A stretch of DNA of 64,000 nt, from NCBI GenBank assembly GCA_043228905.1, contig JBHGNT010000020.1, positions 8,184,001 to 8,248,000 of the forward strand, given 5' to 3'. The position numbers and the translations under genes were made by a program. This document shows positions 15,394 through 57,900 of the stretch, in pieces; within the stretch, counting starts at the first letter, position 1; each line of letters opens with the position of its first letter. The stretch comes from Azolla caroliniana (taxonomy: Eukaryota; Plantae; Polypodiophyta). The notes under the pieces were generated by a model, which worked only from the letters and a program-made list of their open reading frames with translations, was not told the origin of the DNA and did not search any database.

Positions 15394-18300
15394 TGTGAAA
15401 GTGTTTTTAGAATCTAAGCCATTGAACATTAGGAGAATATAAAGTATAGATAATTCACCTTTTGAGGATAAGAACACGAACTAAGACCTTAGGGAAGAAG
15501 TCAAAAGTAAAAGTACGAGACCAAGAGAAAAGTAAAAAGAGAAAACGCAGACTATAAAAAACAGTAAAAATAGAATGGTCATAACTCCCTTGTTGTTTAT
15601 CCAAATATCACGTTTAAATATGGATTAGAAATCTTGTAAAAAGAGCTTTCTATAGCTTTTTAAATCGCTTAATTTGGATTTCGGATGAGGGAGATATGAC
15701 GATTAGAAGGTTGATGTGTCATAGCTAAAAATAGGGAGATAAAAAGCTTCTAAAAATAGCATGAACGTGGATAAGAAGAGGAAGGTTATAAAAGAAGAAG
15801 TAATATGAGTGAGAAGGGGGCTAAGAGTGAAGGCCAAAGAGTGGATGAGGAGTGTTAGGAAGAAGTGTCTTTGTGGAAGAGGAAGTGTCTTAGAAGAGGA
15901 AGGTCTTTGGTTTTAGTTCAATGTGGAGTTTGTCTCCTTTGTATTCTCTGGATGTTGGAATATCAGAACATTCTTATTTCTTGCTCGCTTTCTCTATCTT
16001 TTTTCTTAGTTTCTTGAGTTATACTCTCCAATCATAATTACCTAGAGCTATATAATATAATATGATTTTCAACTCCATCTAATCGGTTTGGTCAAGCCCT
16101 CATATAGTGTATAACTATCTATTATCTTATACACCCTATCATTTTGGCGCTCCAGGGAGGGCCGATCCTTTCTGTATAGGAAGAGAAGTTATCATTTAAT
16201 TGTGTTACTATATTACATTAACTTAGCTATGCAATTTGCATTTTCGGGTGAAAGAACACAAGATGCTGGTGCCTTTTTGGCATGCTTTGAGCATCATGCC
16301 ATATCTATTGGACGCATCACCGACAACGAAAAGTTGCCCTTGTTGGTAGCTACATTCTATGGTCGTGCTCGAGATTGGTATGACTCTTTTCCGCAAAATG
16401 AACAAGGAGAATATCAATTATTGGTGCATCAATTTCGTACAAGATATATTCAATGGAAAAGTGCAACTGAGGTAAGGGAGGAGCTTTTTCAACTAAAGAT
16501 GGAATCACCTTTTGGTTTTTTAGAGTATGAACGAAATTTCCAAGAATTGTGGACGACGTGGATTCGTCTTCGTGGTGGCACCGAAGACGAGTGGTTTAAG
16601 ATAGAACAATTTAAGGTGGGCCTTGATATGCATTTCCGTTTGGAGGCAAGCTTGAAGGATCCAACGACTTTTCAAGCTCTTCTCCAAGTTTGTCAAGATT
16701 ATGATCGACAAGTGAAGATGATGAGTTCCATGGGGGATCCCCAAATGACGGCTTTGGGTGCAAATTTGATGCCTCGTGCCAACTTTCAAGCCTTATCTTC
16801 AATTGTGCATGGTGGACAAGTGTTTCCAAATGTGTATACCACCACAACAATAAACCCAACAAGTATATCTCAAGAAGTGGAACAAGTGAAGAGTGAACAA
16901 GATACAATGGCGTTGGTGAATCGGCGCTTTGATGAAGTGATGGCCCACTTGCAACAATCCCAAGCAATTCGCAACACTATTCCCGATGGTGGTGGCTCTA
17001 GAGGGCATCAAGGTGTAATTTGTTATTCTTGTCAAGAGGAGGGACACTCAACAAGATGTCCTCATCGACAACAAAGAGGTATGGAAAGAGACATGTATGA
17101 AGTGCAACGGAATGGACAACGACCTATTAACAATGGAGTCGAAGGAGGCGAATCCATAACACTTCCAATGACTCAGGTTCCTACAATTCCTCATAATGTG
17201 AATCTTCTTAATTTTATTGATGATAGTGATAGTGCTTGTGAAGTAGCTCTTGTGAAAAGGACAAGAGCCTCGCAAAAGGAGAAAGAAGTTGAAGGAGAAT
17301 CTAGTGACTCAAGACAAAAGAAGAAGTCTAAGGAGAATGAGAAAGAGGACAAATTGAGAAGGAGACACTCTAGAAGGAAGATAAAGATGGAGGATATTCC
17401 TATGGGAGAAGGTGTAGAATCTTTCAATCGGAAGCATGAATTGATATCGAGTGGACCAAGGATAACATGGCCGCAACTTCTCCAATTATCTCCCACATTA
17501 CGAAAGGAGTGGGGGCGACTTGCAAGTATTCGCCAAAGTCGGAAGACTGTGCATTATGTGGGAATCGTGCGAGTAGAAGATCGAAAGGACATACGACCCA
17601 CCATCCCCGTCTCCATCAAAGGGTTTCACATCAAAGATGCGTTGGTTGATAGTGGTGCTAGAGTAAGCTTGATTTCTGAATTTGTGGTAAACAAAGTAGG
17701 AATTCCTATTAGTAGGTCATCTTCAACAAGGGTGGTTGTAGTAGATAGTGGAGTGGTGCATTGCACAAGCATAGTGGAGGATGTGTTCATCAAGTGTTTT
17801 GGAATAAGAGGAGAAGCTTGCAACAAATACCACATCAACTTGAAGGAAAGTGTATCAATTTCCCCAAAGCTTCGGCAATTGAGTGTTGAACAAAAGGAAG
17901 AATTTATGCAAGAGTTCAACGCATGGTTACAAGAAAGTTCCAATTATAAGATGGAAGATTTGAGGTGTGTGTCACCTATAGTTTTGGTTCCAAAGAAGAA
18001 TGAGATCAATTTCAAAGCCTTGAATGATTCGACCAAACGAGATGAATTTTCACTTCCTTCTCGAGATGAGATTGTCGATAAAATGGTTGTTTATACAAAA
18101 CAAGGTAGTGTGGACAATATGTTGTGCCAAAAAGGATTTCATGTGGATGATTCAAAGATTAACATAATTACAAAGATGACAATTCCGACAAGTCTTGAAG
18201 CTTTGAAAGTATTTGTGCAAAAGGTGCGCTCGCTCGAAAGATTCATTTATATGTTGACATGCTTACTGCTATCAAGAGTGATGTATCCCATGGCCCTACT

Positions 18301-19338
18301 AGTCTTTGGAGCGTTAACGAAGACATAATGATTGTGGTAACCTCTTTCTTTGTGTTGACAAGGAGAAAGATGATGATGGAATTGTCAATGTGTGTGTGGG
18401 TGTGTCTAGGAGTGTGAGGTTTTTCCTACCGATTAGCGGGGGTTTTACTCACATCTTTTTATTTTCTTTTTATTATATCTCTCTCATTGTCTATAGCCAA
18501 GAGATTGGCGAGAGAGCTTTTGTTTGTTAAGTACTGCCAATAAGTGCTTCGCCATAAATGGCTTAGCCTCTAACAAGGGGGAGGGCTAAATGTGAAAGTG
18601 TTTTTAGAATCTAAGCCATTGAACATTAGGAGAATATAAAGTATAGATAATTCACCTTTTGAGGATAAGAACACGAACTAAGACCTTAGGGAAGAAGTCA
18701 AAAGTAAAAGTACGAGACCAAGAGAAAAGTAAAAAGAGAAAACGCAGACTATAAAAAACAGTAAAAATAGAATGGTCATAACTCCCTTGTTGTTTATCCA
18801 AATATCACGTTTAAATATGGATTAGAAATCTTGTAAAAAGAGCTTTCTATAGCTTTTTAAATCGCTTAATTTGGATTTCGGATGAGGGAGATATGACGAT
18901 TAGAAGGTTGATGTGTCATAGCTAAAAATAGGGAGATAAAAAGCTTCTAAAAATAGCATGAACGTGGATAAGAAGAGGAAGGTTATAAAAGAAGAAGTAA
19001 TATGAGTGAGAAGGGGGCTAAGAGTGAAGGCCAAAGAGTGGATGAGGAGTGTTAGGAAGAAGTGTCTTTGTGGAAGAGGAAGTGTCTTAGAAGAGGAAGG
19101 TCTTTGGTTTTAGTTCAATGTGGAGTTTGTCTCCTTTGTATTCTCTGGATGTTGGAATATCAGAACATTCTTATTTCTTGCTCGCTTTCTCTATCTTTTT
19201 TCTTAGTTTCTTGAGTTATACTCTCCAATCATAATTACCTAGAGCTATATAATATAATATGATTTTCAACTCCATCTAATCGGTTTGGTCAAGCCCTCAT
19301 ATAGTGTATAACTATCTATTATCTTATACACCCTATCA
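15394..19338 (+). mobile_element. Non-autonomous 3.9-kb LTR element (TR-GAG-like) encoding Gag-PR-RT remnant
   Basis: 748-bp LTRs 15394-16141 and 18591-19338 with no differences seen by eye. TSD CACGG. PBS-like TGGCGCTCCAGGGAGGG 16145-16161. PPT 18575-18585. Confidence 0.93.
16229..18328 (+). CDS. Gag + zinc knuckle + aspartic protease + internally deleted RT remnant, single open frame
   Basis: Gag-like N-terminus, CYSCQEEGHSTRC, ALVDSGA, then VSPIVLVPKKN and FKALNDSTKRDEFSLP. No YxDD, RNase H or integrase. Confidence 0.85.
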   Translation: MQFAFSGERTQDAGAFLACFEHHAISIGRITDNEKLPLLVATFYGRARDWYDSFPQNEQGEYQLLVHQFRTRYIQWKSATEVREELFQLKMESPFGFLEYERNFQELWTTWIRLRGGTEDEWFKIEQFKVGLDMHFRLEASLKDPTTFQALLQVCQDYDRQVKMMSSMGDPQMTALGANLMPRANFQALSSIVHGGQVFPNVYTTTTINPTSISQEVEQVKSEQDTMALVNRRFDEVMAHLQQSQAIRNTIPDGGGSRGHQGVICYSCQEEGHSTRCPHRQQRGMERDMYEVQRNGQRPINNGVEGGESITLPMTQVPTIPHNVNLLNFIDDSDSACEVALVKRTRASQKEKEVEGESSDSRQKKKSKENEKEDKLRRRHSRRKIKMEDIPMGEGVESFNRKHELISSGPRITWPQLLQLSPTLRKEWGRLASIRQSRKTVHYVGIVRVEDRKDIRPTIPVSIKGFHIKDALVDSGARVSLISEFVVNKVGIPISRSSSTRVVVVDSGVVHCTSIVEDVFIKCFGIRGEACNKYHINLKESVSISPKLRQLSVEQKEEFMQEFNAWLQESSNYKMEDLRCVSPIVLVPKKNEINFKALNDSTKRDEFSLPSRDEIVDKMVVYTKQGSVDNMLCQKGFHVDDSKINIITKMTIPTSLEALKVFVQKVRSLERFIYMLTCLLLSRVMYPMALLVFGALTKT

Positions 19339-22300
19339 CACGGTTCCCGATCCGGTTTGGGGCGAAGGTTCTCAGTGAGTGACAACGAGGATACGCCCAA
19401 GTTAAGCGCGAACTGTGGGGTATCGTTTCGGCGGTGAAGACCGATAAAGACTACTTGATAGGGATAGAAGTAATCATCGAGACAGACTGTCTACCGATCC
19501 TCGATATGGTTTCCGAATGCGCGACTCCGGACCTCGCGATGCTCAGGTGGATCGCGTACATTAAGTCCCTGGATCCGGAGATATGACACATCTCCGGAAA
19601 GGACAACACCATGGCCGATATGCTTTCTAGAGCGCGGTTCGACGACAAGAACAACATGGTTTCAGAGGACGAAGAAGTCGGTGTAGACTTCTTCGAGTCG
19701 GCTCGCGTAGCGACAAGGGCAAGGAACACTCTGGTGCTTAACGAGTTCAGCGAGAGCGAGTATGACGGGGAGTGGCTCCAGATTGGAAGGTTCCTGAGGA
19801 CAATGATGCCGGACGCGGCATGGACTAGAGAGGAGGCTAACCTGATCCGGAAGAAAGTGTATCGATTCTTCCTACGGGACGGAAGTATATGGAAGCTCCC
19901 AAAGAAGCGAGGCGGTGTTCCAGTCCGCGTAGTGGCGAGAAAGGACGAGCAGGATGAGTTGTTAGCAGCGTACCACAAGAGTCCTTGGGCCAGACACCGC
20001 GGGACTTGGGCCACATTCGAGAAACTGAGAGAGAAATATTGGTGGTCGGGGCTGTACCGGGATGTGTACCAGTTTGTGACGACGTGCGAAAGCTGTCAGC
20101 TGCACTCCACAATCCGACATCGAGATGAGCTACACCCAACCTACCCGCCAACCGTCCATTTCAAGTGGATGGTAGACTTAGTAACTATGCCGATGGGGGT
20201 AGGGCATATGCGGTACCTTGTGCTTGCGCGGGAGGATTTGACGAACCAGGTGCAGGGCCCCGCACTGCAGAACAAGACGACTGCGGCGGTGTGCCAGTTC
20301 CTAATTGAGGAGGTGGTGTGTCAGTACGGGTGCGTAGGGAAGATCGTAGCGGATCGTGGGGAACTGGATGCATAGGAGGCCGAAGAACTGTTTGAACGGT
20401 TAGGGGTTAAACTCTCGCTCACCACGGCATACAATCCGAAGGCAAATGGGAAGGTGGAACGTGGACATGGGCCAATCGTAAAGGCGTTGGTACGGGCCTG
20501 CGGAGGCCAGGTCAGGAATTGGCCGTGGCTCCTACCCTACGCATTGTGTGCAAACCGAACTACGCACAACTCAGTAACCAGGTTCATGCCGGCGGAGTTG
20601 ATGTATGGGAAGAAGTCGATCATGCCGATGGAGAGGACAATCTCCTCGTGGGCCATGGTGGACTGGAGAGATGAGATGAGCCGAGAAGAGTTGTTAGTAG
20701 CGCGAATCCAACAACTCGAGCAAAGACCGGAGGGCGTGGAACGAGCAAAGGCAAAGCTGCAAATGGCAAGGGAGAGGAACAAAGGCTGGTTCGACCGGAC
20801 ACGCCAACTGCGGCCAAAGAAGATCAAGGAAGGCGACTGGGTGTTGGTGTACGACAGTAGCCTCGACAATCAGCACAGGGCGGTGCGGAAATTTGCAAGG
20901 AGATGGTTCGGGCCCTACGACGTGACAAGCACTAACGACAATGGCACGTACCATCTCTCGGAGTTTGACGGGACGCGGCTAACAGTACCGGTAGCCGGGA
21001 AGCGGATCAAGGAGTTCAAGAAGCAGCACGAGGACGAGCCGAACCTAGGGAGCGAGGACGACGATGGCGATCGGTTCGGAGAGGATGAAGGATCGGGGAG
21101 CAATGAGTAGAGGCAAGCCGGTTTCTCCAGTAATTGTTCCTCTCCGGCACATACTAGTGGATGTGCAGTTTGGTGGGGGTGGATGTCGTGGAGAAAACCG
21201 GCCATAGGAGGAAACGGGGTGGAAAAGACGCATGAACCGACCTATACGCGTGGCTGCACTATTTATTAAGTTGTACATAACTAGGTCTGATTCAACTGAT
21301 GTAAGTATACTAGGTAGTACAAATTAATTGTCTAGGGAAAACAAGCATATCTCTGTCCGACATGACAGAGGGTAAATGTATGTAGCTGAGGGTGTAACAG
21401 TCTTCCGAGGCGGCCTATAAAAGGGAGGGGAAAAGACTGAGAGAGGGATTAGACATTTTGGAGAGGACGAAGTGTTGTCGGACTGGGAACCGTGCTCTTT
21501 TCTCCATCATCGTTGTTGCTTCGGTTAAGTTCGTTGCCTCTGTTGTGTGAAAGTACGAGTGCTTGAAGCTTTTCCATTAAACCTTCATCTCATTTTCTGT
21601 TGCTATCCGGCTGAGCCGGTTCTGTCTGACGCTTCCGCACATTAACATTCACATGGTATCAAAGCGTGAGGGTTGAAAACCTCTGTAGCTGACATTTGCT
21701 TCCGTAGACAAACCCTAGATCCCGGTAACAACAGATAGAGAGAAGATATGGACAGAGGAATGGCGAGTTCACTTCCAACAGAGAAGCTCGACTGGAGCAA
21801 CTATGCATCCTGGTCATATAAAATGCACCAATACCTGTTGGGGCATGGATATTGGGGCTTCATGGAAGGAACAAGTGAAGTAGCACCGGAGCCGTCACAC
21901 AAAGACTTCTCGGTATGGGAGCAAGGAACGAGTCGGGTACTCTACTGTCTCGTGTCCGGTGTGCATGATCAAATGCTCAACTACATTAAGGATGCAAAGA
22001 CGCCGAAGGAGGCCTGGGAAAATCTAAGGAAGATTTTCGCTGCAAGTACCACAGCTTGTAAGTTGCAGCTCTGGCAAGAGTTGAACAACATCCGGCACAG
22101 AGACATGTCGGTTACAGACTACACCACCAAGATAAAGGAGATTTGCGACTCACTCGGGTCCCTCAACGTGACGGTGGACGAAGACGAGATGGTACAAATC
22201 TGCTTCGGTGGTCTAGCGCAAAGGTACGGGCCAATCCGGACAGCAATCTGCACCCAGGAGAAACCACCGTCCTTCTTCGACTTGCACTCGCAAGTGGGTC

Positions 22301-24178: not shown

Positions 24179-25011
24179 TGTCGTAGTGTAGGTTGCACAC
24201 TATGTGGAAATTATATTTTTGTCCCTCCGGATAGAGAATGGAGTGCTCGGTGAGAACCGGAAGAAAACGGCATACCGGAAAGGAAGAAAACGGCATACCG
24301 GAAAGGAGGAAAACGGCATACCGGCAAGGAAGAAAACGGCATACCGGCAAGGAAGAGCCGGATAAAGAGACATAAATGTAAAAAAGAAGAAAGAATTACT
24401 CACTACTGCGCAGGGCGTGATTCGAACTCTGCACCTCCACGTTGACAAACCCCAACCTTACCATTACATTAACTTATCTTAAGTGTTTTAAATATAGATT
24501 TAATACGTATAAGACCTTTATTTATGCATACCTTTATTAAAAGGTAAATCGTGTATTTTTTTAATATATGAAAAAGAAAAACACGAGACACTAAAAAATA
24601 ACTCATGCACATCTAGCGTGCATGAGCCCTATACTTAGGAAATAAAAAAGCATCACATGCATATTTAGTGGACATGAACACTTTTTGTAAAAAAAAAGCA
24701 TGAAGCCATGCTTAGCTCTTCCTTCCTTATATAAGGAGGAGAGAAATATATAAAGGGTTGTTGATTATTTGGATTAAGGATTAATCAATACAAAAATTAT
24801 TCGTGGGATTCACGATTTATACATCTACTTCTCTCTTAACACCCTAAGTACCAATTAATATAGTATACTCGTGTGATTCACGAGTTTCTTATCTTTCTCT
24901 TTGCTATTTACTCATAATTAATCTCTATCTCACGAACTTCTTTCTCCTAGTCCAAGACCTCTGTGGTTCCCACCCGACTCACGCAACGATCCGGAGCCGA
25001 AAGGCACGACA
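24179..25011 (+). mobile_element. Solo LTR (Ylt1-like Gypsy family) inserted in Copia C gag
   Basis: TGTCGT...ACGACA termini. 4-bp TSD GCGT/GCGC. The gag frame SKAL/LTESE resumes on removal. 24-bp tandem repeats at 24255-24355. Confidence 0.85.
24406..24475 (-). promoter_or_regulatory. tRNA-derived segment (degenerate A box + B box) inside solo LTR
   Basis: Minus strand TAATGTAATGGTAAG...GGAGGTGCAGAGTTCGAATCACG, with tRNA-like spacing. Confidence 0.6.
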
Positions 25012-53948: not shown

Positions 53949-55073
53949 TGTCATGAAGATTTTCGGCAATAGTGTGAAAATCCCATAAAACGTACGAAAT
54001 CGAGTATGAATCACATAGTACAATAATTGTGAAGATAACATTTTAAATAAATTTAATATCTAAGTACAAAATGATGGAGGTTTCGGATGCACTTTATTAC
54101 ACGAGAAACGGACAACTAAATGTCAAGATATGAGGGTATAAAGTTTGTGAAAGGAAAAGAGAAAATTGTGAGATATCCCACATAGGCACGACAAATACGG
54201 CTCTCATCATATATAAGGTGGAGCAAAAGATATTATCTTTGTGTCTATGTGTGGAGCATAGAGAGTTCAAGGTAACTTGAATTAAGAGTGGAGGTGGGCT
54301 AGCTACTCGTAAAGGGTTTTGGCTAACCAAAACTGGACCGACGATGGAGCCGGTGATCTGGCGGCATCCGACGACAATCCGGCGACGGTGATCTGACGGC
54401 ATCCAACGCCAGTGAGACACCGGCATCCGACGGCGATGGCACCGATAACCGACGGCATCCGGCGGCGGCACCGGTAACTGACGGCATCCGACGAACCAGC
54501 GTCCGAAGACTAGATAAATAAATATATAAATATATATACATATACAAGGAGGGCAAGGAAGGATTCGAACCTTGCACCTCCAAGTTAGGAATCAATTGGC
54601 TTACCATTAAGCCATGCTATTTAGTTGAAATTATATTTCTATCATTGTACTTTTACATGTAAATTCTCATACATGAGAGCTAAAATGAGTGATATGGTTA
54701 TCATGCACCACATGTAATACGTAAGCGCCAAATGGCAAACATGCAATTCATGTATGTCTTGTACCCTCACATGCATCATATGCATGAGAGCATCTATAAA
54801 AGAAGGAAGGGGGAGGAGAAAAAAACACGGTTTTTTTTTATTATGAAATTAAGAAGAAGAAATTCGTTATCAAATTGATGGTGTAACTTGTTTCTTAAAT
54901 CCAAAGATAAAACTTCAATCAATCTTTCTAAATCGTTTAATCTCAACTTCTCTCTTTCCCAATCTATCTTAAGTACTTTCTCGCCAAAGCTTGTATCGAC
55001 TTTGAATCCTTCCGGTCCAGAACCCCGGCGGTTCCGCCTCACGATCCGCGCGTAGTGACGGATCTTCACGACA
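53949..55073 (+). mobile_element. Solo LTR (1125 bp, Ylt1-like family) in Copia 3 RT
   Basis: 12-bp terminal IR TGTCATGAAGAT/ATCTTCACGACA. 4-bp TSD ACGT. RT frame FVT/SKSD resumes on removal. Confidence 0.9.
54548..54620 (-). promoter_or_regulatory. tRNA-derived segment with consensus A box and B box inside solo LTR
   Basis: Minus strand TGGCTTAATGG (A box) ... GGTTCGAATCC (B box), with an AAGG/CCTT T-stem. Confidence 0.72.
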
Positions 55074-56630: not shown

Positions 56631-57108
56631 CCGGCTCCGCCTCGCCGGCTCCGTCGAATGCCGATTCCGCCAGGTCACCGGCTCTGCCACTGCCTCGCCG
56701 GCTCTGTCGGATGCCGATACCGCCGGATCACCGATCGCCGGTTACCGTCGAGTTCCGTTTTGGTTGGTCAAAACCTTTATGAGTGGCTAGGCCACCTCCA
56801 CTCTTAGTTCAAGTTACCTTGAACTCTCTATTCTCAACACGTAAACACAAAGATAATAGCTTTTGCTCTACCTTATATATGATGAGAGCCGTATTTGTCG
56901 TGCCTATGTGGGATATCTCACAATTTTCTCTTTTCCTTTCACAAACTTTATACCCTCATATCTTGACATCTAGTTGTTTGTTTCTCGTGTAATAAAGTGC
57001 ATTCGAAAGCTCTTGAAGACCTCCATCATTTTGTACTTAGATACTTCACTATTATTGTTTTATGTGATTCATACTCGATTTTGTACGTTTTATGTGATTT
57101 TCACGACA
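56631..57108 (-). mobile_element. Truncated LTR of the 53949 family, inverted, within the Copia 3 3' LTR
   Basis: Reverse complement matches about 53975-54400. Begins TGTCGTGAAAATC. Confidence 0.85.
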
Positions 57109-57900
57109 GCATAGTGCTTAGTTATGAGCATTGAAGTACGTGTTAGTACTTTTGTCAGTCCGTATGGACTTGTATAAAAGTGCTCACTGAGCACATCCTA
57201 TGTACAAATTGAGTAATTTTTTGAATCGTGTGTTTTTCTCTCTGTCTCTCCTGCGTACTGTCCATATACAAGCTCTCCATTAAACTTGCATATTTTCTGT
57301 GTTCGATTTCCTATTATTACTTCCGCACGCTATTCTTTACAAGTATGTCGGTGAGAGGAGAGGGAGTTAAGACCCATTAATCTCACCTCTTAAGATCGAG
57401 GTCAAATACTGTCATTTGAAAGAAAGGGGATTGGACCACTCCTTTTTGTAATGTGCCTCACCCCTTATTACTATAAAAGGGAGTGAGGGGTCACTTTTGA
57501 GGGGCTTCCACTTTTTGGTTTCTTTGGGTTACCATGAGGGTTTCGGAATTTTGGGTTTTAGGATCTCGTTTTAGGGGTTTCATTCGTCTTCTTCTTCTTC
57601 TTCTTCTTTTCCCCTATCCGGTTAGGGTTTCATCTAGAGGGTTTACATTCGTCCTACATGGCCACAATTGTAATTGGTATGGTGTTTTCCATAATGTATC
57701 TTGTCTTGTTTAGATCTTATTCTCTTGAATCTTAATCTCTCACATCTTAATCTTTCTTTTCCTTCTCAGTTGAACTCCCAAGCTTCTCTCCCTCCTCTTA
57801 CTCCCTAGTCCAAGACCCCTTGTGGTACCCTCCTATCCGACATGTACGTGTGTATTTCCGCGACATTTGGTGAACTTGACGTGAAGGGCAGCAAGGGAGG

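What the first reader, a model, noticed from the sequence alone, without database searches (positions are those of the whole stretch)
54548..54620. Antisense tRNA-derived Pol III module built into Ylt1-like Gypsy LTRs (also 24406-24475)
Seen: two otherwise diverged solo LTRs share AATGGTAAG...AAC(T/G)TGGAGGTGCA-RR-GTTCGAATC. It lies between a tandem-repeat block and the TATA box, antisense to the LTR. The 54548 copy has consensus A and B boxes. Known: Cassandra TRIMs carry 5S sequence in their LTRs, and TFIIIC-bound B boxes can act as chromatin barriers. Inference: a captured tRNA is kept as a Pol III promoter or insulator. It resembles tRNA-Trp, the apparent primer of relative Gypsy E, and has the same polarity as a PBS, so capture of the element's own primer is possible.
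Basis: partly seen in the sequence, partly recalled or inferred. Interest (0 to 1): 0.82.

Follow-up and report, generated by a model that had tools for sequence, protein, structure and literature searches.

The report
Backward tRNA promoter inside Gypsy LTRs
A group of protein-coding plant jumping genes carries, backwards in the control region of its end repeats, a decayed tRNA copy whose two polymerase III promoter boxes are kept across four diverged repeat families, so it likely serves as a built-in polymerase III site, a design we found described only in the forward direction in small non-coding elements.

Summary
Both window copies lie in solo LTRs (24179-25011, 53949-55073) with 4-bp NCGN target duplications. 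A metagenome scan on the B-box side gave 22 loci, 12 of them LTRs of four families; one (L020) is a complete gag-pol Gypsy with a tRNA-Trp primer site, fitting the Phygy type. The A box was not in the search pattern, yet it sits at the same distance from the B box in 13 of 13 testable LTR copies and in 0 of 10 other hits. The anticodon arm between the boxes has drifted. Public runs show the module in the bulk of both window families. It is no tRNA and no separate SINE insertion. Its 3' half has become a new hairpin around the B box in 10 of 14 copies, weakened in the main A family. Capture of the element's own tRNA-Trp primer is not supported where testable. Best reading: a captured tRNA or SINE head kept as a divergent TFIIIC/Pol III site in U3; activity untested. 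Closest known: Helenus TRIMs (sense, non-autonomous). The scan noted similar tRNA-like units in fungal Gypsy elements before, not this family.

The parts
53949..55073 (+). Solo LTR, family B, 1125 bp, 4-bp TSD ACGT, inserted in a Copia RT region
   Evidence: empty-site joints and a Trp-type PBS among loose ends behind 55073; relatives L003, L004, L006, L010
54547..54621 (-). tRNA-derived module, copy B (tRNA positions 1-76), antisense to the LTR, in U3
54604..54614 (-). A box (positions 8-19), TGGCTTAATGG
54562..54570 (-). B box (positions 53-61), GTTCGAATC
54548..54581 (-). Non-tRNA hairpin (positions 42-52 paired with 66-75, T47 bulged) with the B box in its loop; predicted -18.6 kcal/mol, z -4.7
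54421..54493 (+). GC-rich 29-bp tandem block in U3, variable between copies, not required for the module
54794..54802 (+). TATA-like motif of LTR B (inferred Pol II promoter), 232 bp from the B box
   Evidence: motif read from sequence, function inferred
24179..25011 (+). Solo LTR, family A, 833 bp, 4-bp TSD GCGT/GCGC, inserted in a Copia gag; same family as the complete element L020
24404..24478 (-). tRNA-derived module, copy A (positions 1-76); hairpin weakened (5 of 8 core pairs)
24461..24471 (-). A box of copy A, TAATGTAATGG
24419..24427 (-). B box of copy A, GTTCGAATC
24380..24385 (-). T6 run 19 nt past position 76, candidate Pol III terminator (AT-rich context, so weak evidence)
24259..24356 (+). 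23-bp tandem block in U3 of LTR A
24727..24735 (+). TATA-like motif of LTR A (inferred Pol II promoter), 308 bp from the B box
56695..57108 (-). Third, truncated family-B LTR; breaks off in the tandem block before the module

Best explanation
A tRNA-derived segment sits antisense in U3 of a clade of autonomous Phygy-type Gypsy LTRs, where its A and B boxes are conserved, and it likely works as a TFIIIC/RNA polymerase III site pointing away from the element's own promoter. Shown: position, orientation, presence in four LTR families and in a complete gag-pol element, fixed box spacing, decay of the cloverleaf, and a new hairpin in most copies. Inferred: one old capture (a tRNA gene or SINE head landing in an ancestral LTR and then copied to both ends by reverse transcription); TFIIIC binds the boxes and places TFIIIB in the AT-rich DNA between the module and the TATA box; this would keep U3 open and fence the Pol II promoter off from silencing that spreads from the flank; Pol III would also make a short antisense RNA (about 90-100 nt in families A, C, D; about 300 nt in B) whose 3' half folds into the hairpin. 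Because it is antisense, it cannot make the element's genomic RNA, unlike the role proposed for Helenus.
For: A box not in the search pattern, yet present at one spacing in 11 of 11 testable LTR loci plus both window copies, and in 0 of 10 non-LTR hits. All 13 fit TRRYNNARYGG (consensus recalled), varying only at its degenerate positions. Positions 14-22: 6 of 8 columns identical in all four families, against 2 of 18 in the anticodon arm held in the same register (Fisher p 0.003; 7 of 15 for positions 8-23, p 0.047). Window A against B: 9/9 at 14-23, 4/14 at 24-37, 9/11 at 42-52, 9/9 at 53-61. In runs of three organism labels, family A shows no listed variant at 10% or more in positions 42-61 or at 14, 16, 18-22, and an A-to-G change at the purine position 15 (40 of 42 rows shown). 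Module bins are covered like neighbouring U3. Stems of the cloverleaf are not kept. Hairpin: 9 of 12 LTR copies beat flank shuffles at p 0.013 or less, 0 of 8 non-LTR hits do; changes on both sides at 51:62, 40:74 and 37:77.
Against: No transcript, binding or reporter data: all runs were contigs. The B-box side of the 12 loci was selected by the search, so its conservation there is circular. In gapped global alignments the A box (8-23) is matched or beaten by 33-74% of other 15-nt windows in 8 of 10 comparisons, and stands out only in C against B (4-7%). Other U3 parts are also conserved: in run X20 the bins 24480-24539 are far deeper than the B-box bin. Family B has no T4 run for about 200-240 nt. 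The hairpin is weak in the abundant, intact A family (z -0.4 to -0.6) and only borderline in D; an ungapped covariation count was not significant (44 of 500 shuffles). Two other Phygy-type LTR stretches in the window have no module, so it is not needed by the lineage as a whole. Only four or five independent lineages were seen.
Confidence: 0.5

Rival explanations
1. The module acts at the RNA level in replication: on the genomic RNA it is complementary to a tRNA's D loop, variable loop and T loop and would dock the primer tRNA at the 3' end (a second primer site aiding strand transfer), or the hairpin with the palindrome TTCGAA in its loop would act in dimerisation or packaging.
For: Same polarity as a PBS and located in U3. 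Conservation extends over 42-52, beyond a B box. The hairpin is as stable on the LTR-sense strand (z -3.1 to -4.9 in 9 copies). Precedents: a second tRNA site at the 3' end of Drosophila Gypsy RNA (PMC1635307, passages); a tRNA-like sequence in HIV-1 U3-R (title in a reference list only).
Against: Poor match to the primer's 3' end (7-10 of 18); anticodon triplet never Trp; A/G freedom at position 15 fits a promoter consensus better than pairing with one tRNA; the hairpin would bury the complementary stretch; in Drosophila Gypsy only the 5' site was indispensable.
Confidence: 0.2
2. A neutral relic: a tRNA or SINE fell into an ancestral LTR, was carried along, and is decaying; the hairpin arose by template switching at a quasi-palindrome, which mimics compensatory change without selection.
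Against: Families A and B share no BLAST-detectable LTR sequence, yet keep both boxes at one spacing while the arm between them is at 4 of 14; changes in the A box fall on degenerate positions only.
Confidence: 0.2
3. Origin: the element copied its own tRNA-Trp primer into U3 during reverse transcription, whatever the present function.
For: The families do use tRNA-Trp and the polarity is what read-through of the primer would give. Family D has ACCA at positions 73-76, as a copied mature tRNA would.
Against: Positions 62-76 match the primer end at only 5-8 of 15; ACCA is seen in 1 of 13 copies; anticodon-position triplets are CCT, CTT (4 copies), GTC (4), ATT (2), GTA, TCT. Kojima found no such link in Helenus either. 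The host tRNA set was not available (searches found no tRNA-Trp gene).
Confidence: 0.1

Closest known systems
Helenus TRIMs (TRIMp3 group with Cassandra and Ajax; Kojima 2024, PMC10886601; parts 1-4 of 6 of the text and one supplement passage read)
   Same: tRNA-derived sequence inside the LTR, A and B boxes conserved, cloverleaf lost, not a functional tRNA, origin by tRNA/SINE insertion into an LTR, no link to the element's own primer.
   Different: Helenus is non-coding and at most 1263 bp; the two LTR sequences seen carry the tRNA in the sense direction, and the paper argues that autonomous partners must use Pol II promoters. Here the module is antisense, in U3 of 0.8-1.2 kb LTRs of a gag-pol element that keeps a TATA-like motif, and has gained a non-tRNA hairpin. 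The paper does remark that 'not a few LTRs' in Repbase hold tRNA-like pieces but analyses only TRIMs.
Phygy lineage of non-chromovirus Ty3/gypsy elements (Neumann et al. 2019, PMC6317226; passages and supplement rows read)
   Same: 4-bp NCGN TSD, tRNA-Trp PBS, coding region filling the interior, no extra ORF.
   Different: Described as specific to Physcomitrella, 7.7-10 kb; L020 implies about 7.3 kb. No tRNA-like LTR module is mentioned in the passages read. Tree placement not tested.
Pol III small-RNA genes in foamy virus LTRs (Kincaid et al. 2014, PMC3993851; passages read)
   Same: An autonomous retroelement with A-box/B-box Pol III units and hairpins in the U3 part of its LTR.
   Different: Those make miRNAs from long hairpins and activity was shown; here the unit is plainly tRNA-shaped, antisense, with a 10-16 bp stem that is likely too short for plant miRNA processing (own knowledge), and no RNA was shown.
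Second tRNA sites near the 3' end: Drosophila Gypsy 3' PBS (PMC1635307, passages), Ty3 bipartite PBS and HIV-1 U3-R tRNA-like sequence (titles in reference lists only)
   Same: tRNA-complementary sequence near the 3' end of the genomic RNA.
   Different: There the match is to the element's own primer; here no such match was found where it could be tested.

Membership tests
Phygy (plant non-chromovirus Gypsy) | 4-bp TSD with NCGN motif | tested here: met
   Both window LTRs; flanks of 8 loci: 6 exact NCGN, 2 with CpG decay; criterion
Phygy (plant non-chromovirus Gypsy) | tRNA-Trp primer binding site | tested here: met
   TGGTGAACCCGACGTGAA behind the LTR in L004, L009, L017, L020 and in loose ends of runs X1, X20; its assignment to tRNA-Trp is recalled and agrees
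Phygy (plant non-chromovirus Gypsy) | RT-RH-INT order, no chromodomain, no extra ORF | tested here: met
   Pfam on L020 ORFs: RVT_1, RNase H, integrase, DUF4100; no chromodomain hit
Phygy (plant non-chromovirus Gypsy) | Placement in the Phygy clade of an RT-RH-INT tree | not tested
   No reference set on hand; best named relatives of L020 pol are Riccia proteins at up to 61% over most of the length
Ylt1 lineage | Placement with fungal Ylt1 in an RT-INT tree | not tested
   No Ylt1 sequence fetched; PMC2864245 passages list Ylt1-like elements from fungi
Helenus / TRIMp3 | tRNA-derived A and B boxes in the LTR | tested here: met
Helenus / TRIMp3 | Short non-coding TRIM | tested here: not met
   L020 encodes 712-aa and 1241-aa frames between LTRs of family A; interiors of families B, C, D were not recovered
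Helenus / TRIMp3 | Promoter oriented to transcribe the element | tested here: not met
   Antisense to PBS and gag-pol in L020, L009, L017, L004; sense in the two Helenus LTRs seen
Helenus / TRIMp3 | Pol III transcription | not testable with these tools
   Only contigs were available
tRNA gene | Cloverleaf recognised by ARAGORN or Rfam RF00005 | tested here: not met
   acceptor stem 0-3 of 7 pairs
Independent SINE insertion | Own TSD, and free copies outside LTRs | tested here: not met
   No flanking repeat above shuffles in 9 of 10 copies (one at 3 of 100); all 11 hits with an A box are in LTRs; no depth excess at the module. T-rich or TA-rich tracts do follow the module, so an ancient SINE origin stays open
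Bipartite or second primer site | Complementarity to the element's own primer tRNA | tested here: inconclusive
   3' 18 nt: 7-10 of 18; the rest of the host tRNA-Trp was not obtainable

The most novel reading that the evidence does not exclude
A clade of autonomous plant Gypsy elements has domesticated a tRNA gene into its own antisense Pol III gene: every LTR, including thousands of solo LTRs, recruits TFIIIC as a portable chromatin boundary and makes a re-wired hairpin RNA with the T loop displayed, used against host silencing. This would be the retrotransposon counterpart of foamy virus LTR small-RNA genes and would scatter Pol III sites across the host genome.
Probability: 0.25. Interest if true: 0.8.

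Novelty: new variant of a known kind. Interest (0 to 1): 0.57.

Why it matters
Pol III promoters in LTRs are described for small non-coding elements, where they are thought to drive the element's own RNA. Here the same kind of capture is fixed in abundant, protein-coding elements in the opposite direction, so it cannot have that role and must do something else or nothing. If the boxes are active, an LTR family carries its own boundary or small-RNA gene, which makes the question of how heterochromatic plant retrotransposons keep their promoters open testable by one box mutation. It also warns that such LTRs can inflate tRNA-like annotations.

Tried and rejected
No whole genome is held for this window, so no genome-wide count of LTRs was possible. 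ARAGORN and Rfam do not call a tRNA. The B-box pattern found nothing in viral contigs. Two scans for a host-type tRNA-Trp gene (viral contigs; prokaryote genomes) found nothing, so the donor could not be tested beyond the 18 nt implied by the PBS; a distant search of one B-family module against phages gave only weak tRNA-Asn matches (best E 0.2), not informative. No RNA holder listed; runs guessed to be RNA (X18, X19, X20) were contigs, X19 gave nothing and X20 is probably DNA: no evidence on expression either way. RNAalifold on the ungapped alignment gave a weak consensus (-2.45 kcal/mol) and pair counts in fixed registers were not significant (44 and 35-40 of 500 shuffles), because families differ by a 5-nt shift of the 3' arm. 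A recalled remark on inflated tRNA gene counts in fern genomes was not found: one search gave 0 papers and the passages and supplements held for PMC6786969 did not contain it (some supplements may not be held). The HIV U3-R paper is not held. The bacterial promoter scan is irrelevant here. Ten hits were set aside before the family counts: L001, L007 (B-box side only, no A box) and L013-L016, L018, L019, L021, L022 (no A-box core, no likeness to these LTRs); they served as controls. L012 is cut before the A box and was left out of A-box counts. Literature searches showed no description of an antisense tRNA-derived module in autonomous plant Gypsy LTRs; most subscription journals and Repbase entries are outside the library.

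Full report
Setting. The window is a stack of nested plant LTR retrotransposons, Copia and Gypsy. No whole genome is held. The host was not identified; the best named relatives of the element's pol are proteins of the liverwort Riccia.

The observation. The shared motif occurs twice, at 54562-54608 and 24419-24465, both on the minus strand, and never in 100 shuffles. Each copy lies in a solo LTR that splits a Copia coding region: B at 53949-55073 with TSD ACGT/ACGT and A at 24179-25011 with GCGT/GCGC. Public runs hold the empty sites as joints across both insertions. The two LTRs do not match by BLAST; the module windows are their best shared stretch. Neither ARAGORN nor Rfam calls a tRNA.

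What carries it. A metagenome scan with the 20-base B-box-side pattern returned 22 loci. Twelve are LTRs related to the window copies and fall into four families: A (L009, L017, L020), B (L003, L004, L006, L010), C (L002, L005, L011, L012) and D (L008, 67-69% like B over about 250-270 bp). L020 holds the end of one LTR, an 18-base primer site, a 712-aa gag-protease frame, a 1241-aa RT-RH-INT frame, a purine tract and the start of the second LTR with the module. It is a deep contig and may be the assembler's merge of many copies. The same primer site follows the LTR in L004, L009 and L017 and in loose ends behind 25011 in runs X1 and X20; a mixed loose-end line behind 55073 shows it too. Flanks are NCGN in 6 of 8 loci and CpG-decayed NCGN in 2. 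A 4-bp NCGN TSD and a tRNA-Trp primer are the listed marks of Phygy (PMC6317226 supplement). Tree placement and the 'Ylt1-like' label were not tested.

Is it a family trait? Laying contigs of public runs at 80% likeness, the two bins over module B have summed depth 373k and 322k in X1, against 266-608k in the ten bins before the tandem block and 346-622k in the four bins after the module; X3 and X4 behave alike. For A the three module bins have 131k, 250k and 194k in X1 against 141-578k in the other bins from 24180 to 24809. Summed depth is no copy number, but it shows neither a hole (rare insertion) nor a peak (free SINE). None of the 15 joints shown in each call removes the whole module (70 and 2 not shown). 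No flanking direct repeat beats shuffles in 9 of 10 copies. The module is clade-limited: a profile search finds only the two copies in the window, none in the LTR of 'Gypsy E' (57349-57865, followed by a Trp-type site at 57868; gag 24% identical to L020 gag) or in the 179-bp LTR-like stretch at 21185-21363 of an element whose pol is 56-72% identical to L020 pol; the latter may be truncated.

What is conserved. In tRNA numbering all 13 complete copies align without a gap from position 8 to 61. The A-box core ARTGGYAA was not in the search pattern and is present in 11 of 11 testable LTR loci, both window copies and 0 of 10 other hits. All 13 fit the recalled A-box consensus TRRYNNARYGG. Columns 14-22 are identical across the four families in 6 of 8 cases, the anticodon arm in 2 of 18 (Fisher p 0.003; p 0.047 for 8-23). 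The two window copies agree 9/9, 4/14, 9/11 and 9/9 at 14-23, 24-37, 42-52 and 53-61. In runs, listed variants of family A fall at 7, 10, 12, 15 (A to G), 35, 37 and 39, none in 42-61 (40 of 42 rows shown). Run X20, a third organism label, has related modules with the A box (loose ends and pieces). Against this: the B-box side of the loci is selected, and in gapped global alignments the A box stands out from other U3 windows in only 2 of 10 comparisons. The cloverleaf is gone: acceptor stem 0-3 of 7 pairs, anticodon stem 1-4 of 5, T stem 2-5 of 5.

A new hairpin. Positions 44-46 and 48-52 pair with a downstream CYTGCCCT block, at 61-68 in families A and C and at 66-73 in B and D, leaving the B box in the loop. 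All 8 pairs form in 10 of 14 copies, 6 in L008, L009 and L020, 5 in window A. An outer stem extends it, with changes on both sides between L017 and family C (51:62, 40:74) and within C (37:77). Folding positions 36-78 gives z -3.2 to -4.7 in 9 of 12 LTR copies; with the selected 20 bases held fixed and the flanks shuffled, p is 0.013 or less in those 9, 0.047 in D, 0.44-0.52 in the main A family, and 0.05 or more in all 8 non-LTR controls tried. It ranks among the top 1-7% of 43-base windows in four of five LTRs. These pairs are not tRNA pairs, and they explain why 42-52 is kept beyond a B box. They rest on about four independent lineages, and template switching at a quasi-palindrome could make them without selection.

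Primer capture. The primer end implied by the PBS matches module positions 59-76 at 7-10 of 18, and 62-76 at 5-8 of 15. The triplet at the anticodon position varies and is never that of Trp. The rest of the host tRNA-Trp could not be fetched. The donor is unresolved; own-primer capture is possible but unsupported.

How it most likely works. The pattern (two boxes, fixed spacing, changes at degenerate positions, lost cloverleaf) is that of a type 2 Pol III promoter. It points towards the LTR's outer edge, 232-308 bp before the TATA-like motif, so the TFIIIB landing zone would fall between it and the Pol II promoter. I infer a TFIIIC/Pol III site that keeps U3 open or bounds it, with a short antisense hairpin RNA ending at T runs at positions 85-95 in A, C and D and at about 270-320 in B. 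Confidence 0.5. Rivals: an RNA-level element of the genomic RNA (0.2), a neutral relic (0.2), own-primer capture as origin (0.1).

Comparison. Helenus (PMC10886601, parts 1-4 of 6 read) is the closest: tRNA-derived A and B boxes in LTRs. It is non-coding and, in the two LTR sequences seen, sense; this case fails both tests, so it is not a Helenus. Foamy virus LTRs show that autonomous retroelements can host Pol III hairpin genes in U3 (PMC3993851, passages). Second tRNA sites near the 3' end are known for Drosophila Gypsy (PMC1635307, passages). Searches showed no account of this arrangement in plant Gypsy LTRs, but Kojima notes unanalysed tRNA-like pieces in other Repbase LTRs. Earlier notes of this scan describe tRNA-like units in fungal and protist Gypsy elements; none concerns this family.

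Verdict. Real, family-wide, tRNA-derived and likely under selection on its promoter boxes; function untested. New variant of a known kind, interest 0.57.

Noticed in passing
L001:1979-1998 and L007:50-69: The same 20-base variable-loop/B-box stretch without an A box, about 70-80 bp before a TATA-like TA run and an apparent host gene start; could be a lone B-box (extra-TFIIIC-like) site or a module remnant.
   Followed up: partly
   Followed up: partly
window:13740-21363: Broken Phygy-type element (pol 56-72% identical to L020 pol) with a possibly very short 179-bp LTR, split by a gag-only element with identical 748-bp LTRs at 15394-19338.
   Followed up: partly
window:33330-34099: Three copies of a 253-bp unit, 99% alike, in the tail of a Copia element: a recent tandem triplication.
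   Followed up: no
window:1-7900 (-): Gypsy element with an extra coding-like region downstream of pol (635-1867) that has no Pfam match, and a 6-base spacer before its primer site.
   Followed up: no
window:54600-54790 and 24600-24720: Clusters of CATGCA motifs between the module and the TATA-like box in both LTR families; RY-type elements by recall, possibly the Pol II enhancer that the module borders.
   Followed up: no
L013:1291, L021:2516, L014, L018, L019, L022: Unrelated repeats from other metagenomes share the B-box-side 20 bases; L013/L021 have a near A box at the same spacing and may be a SINE head.
   Followed up: no
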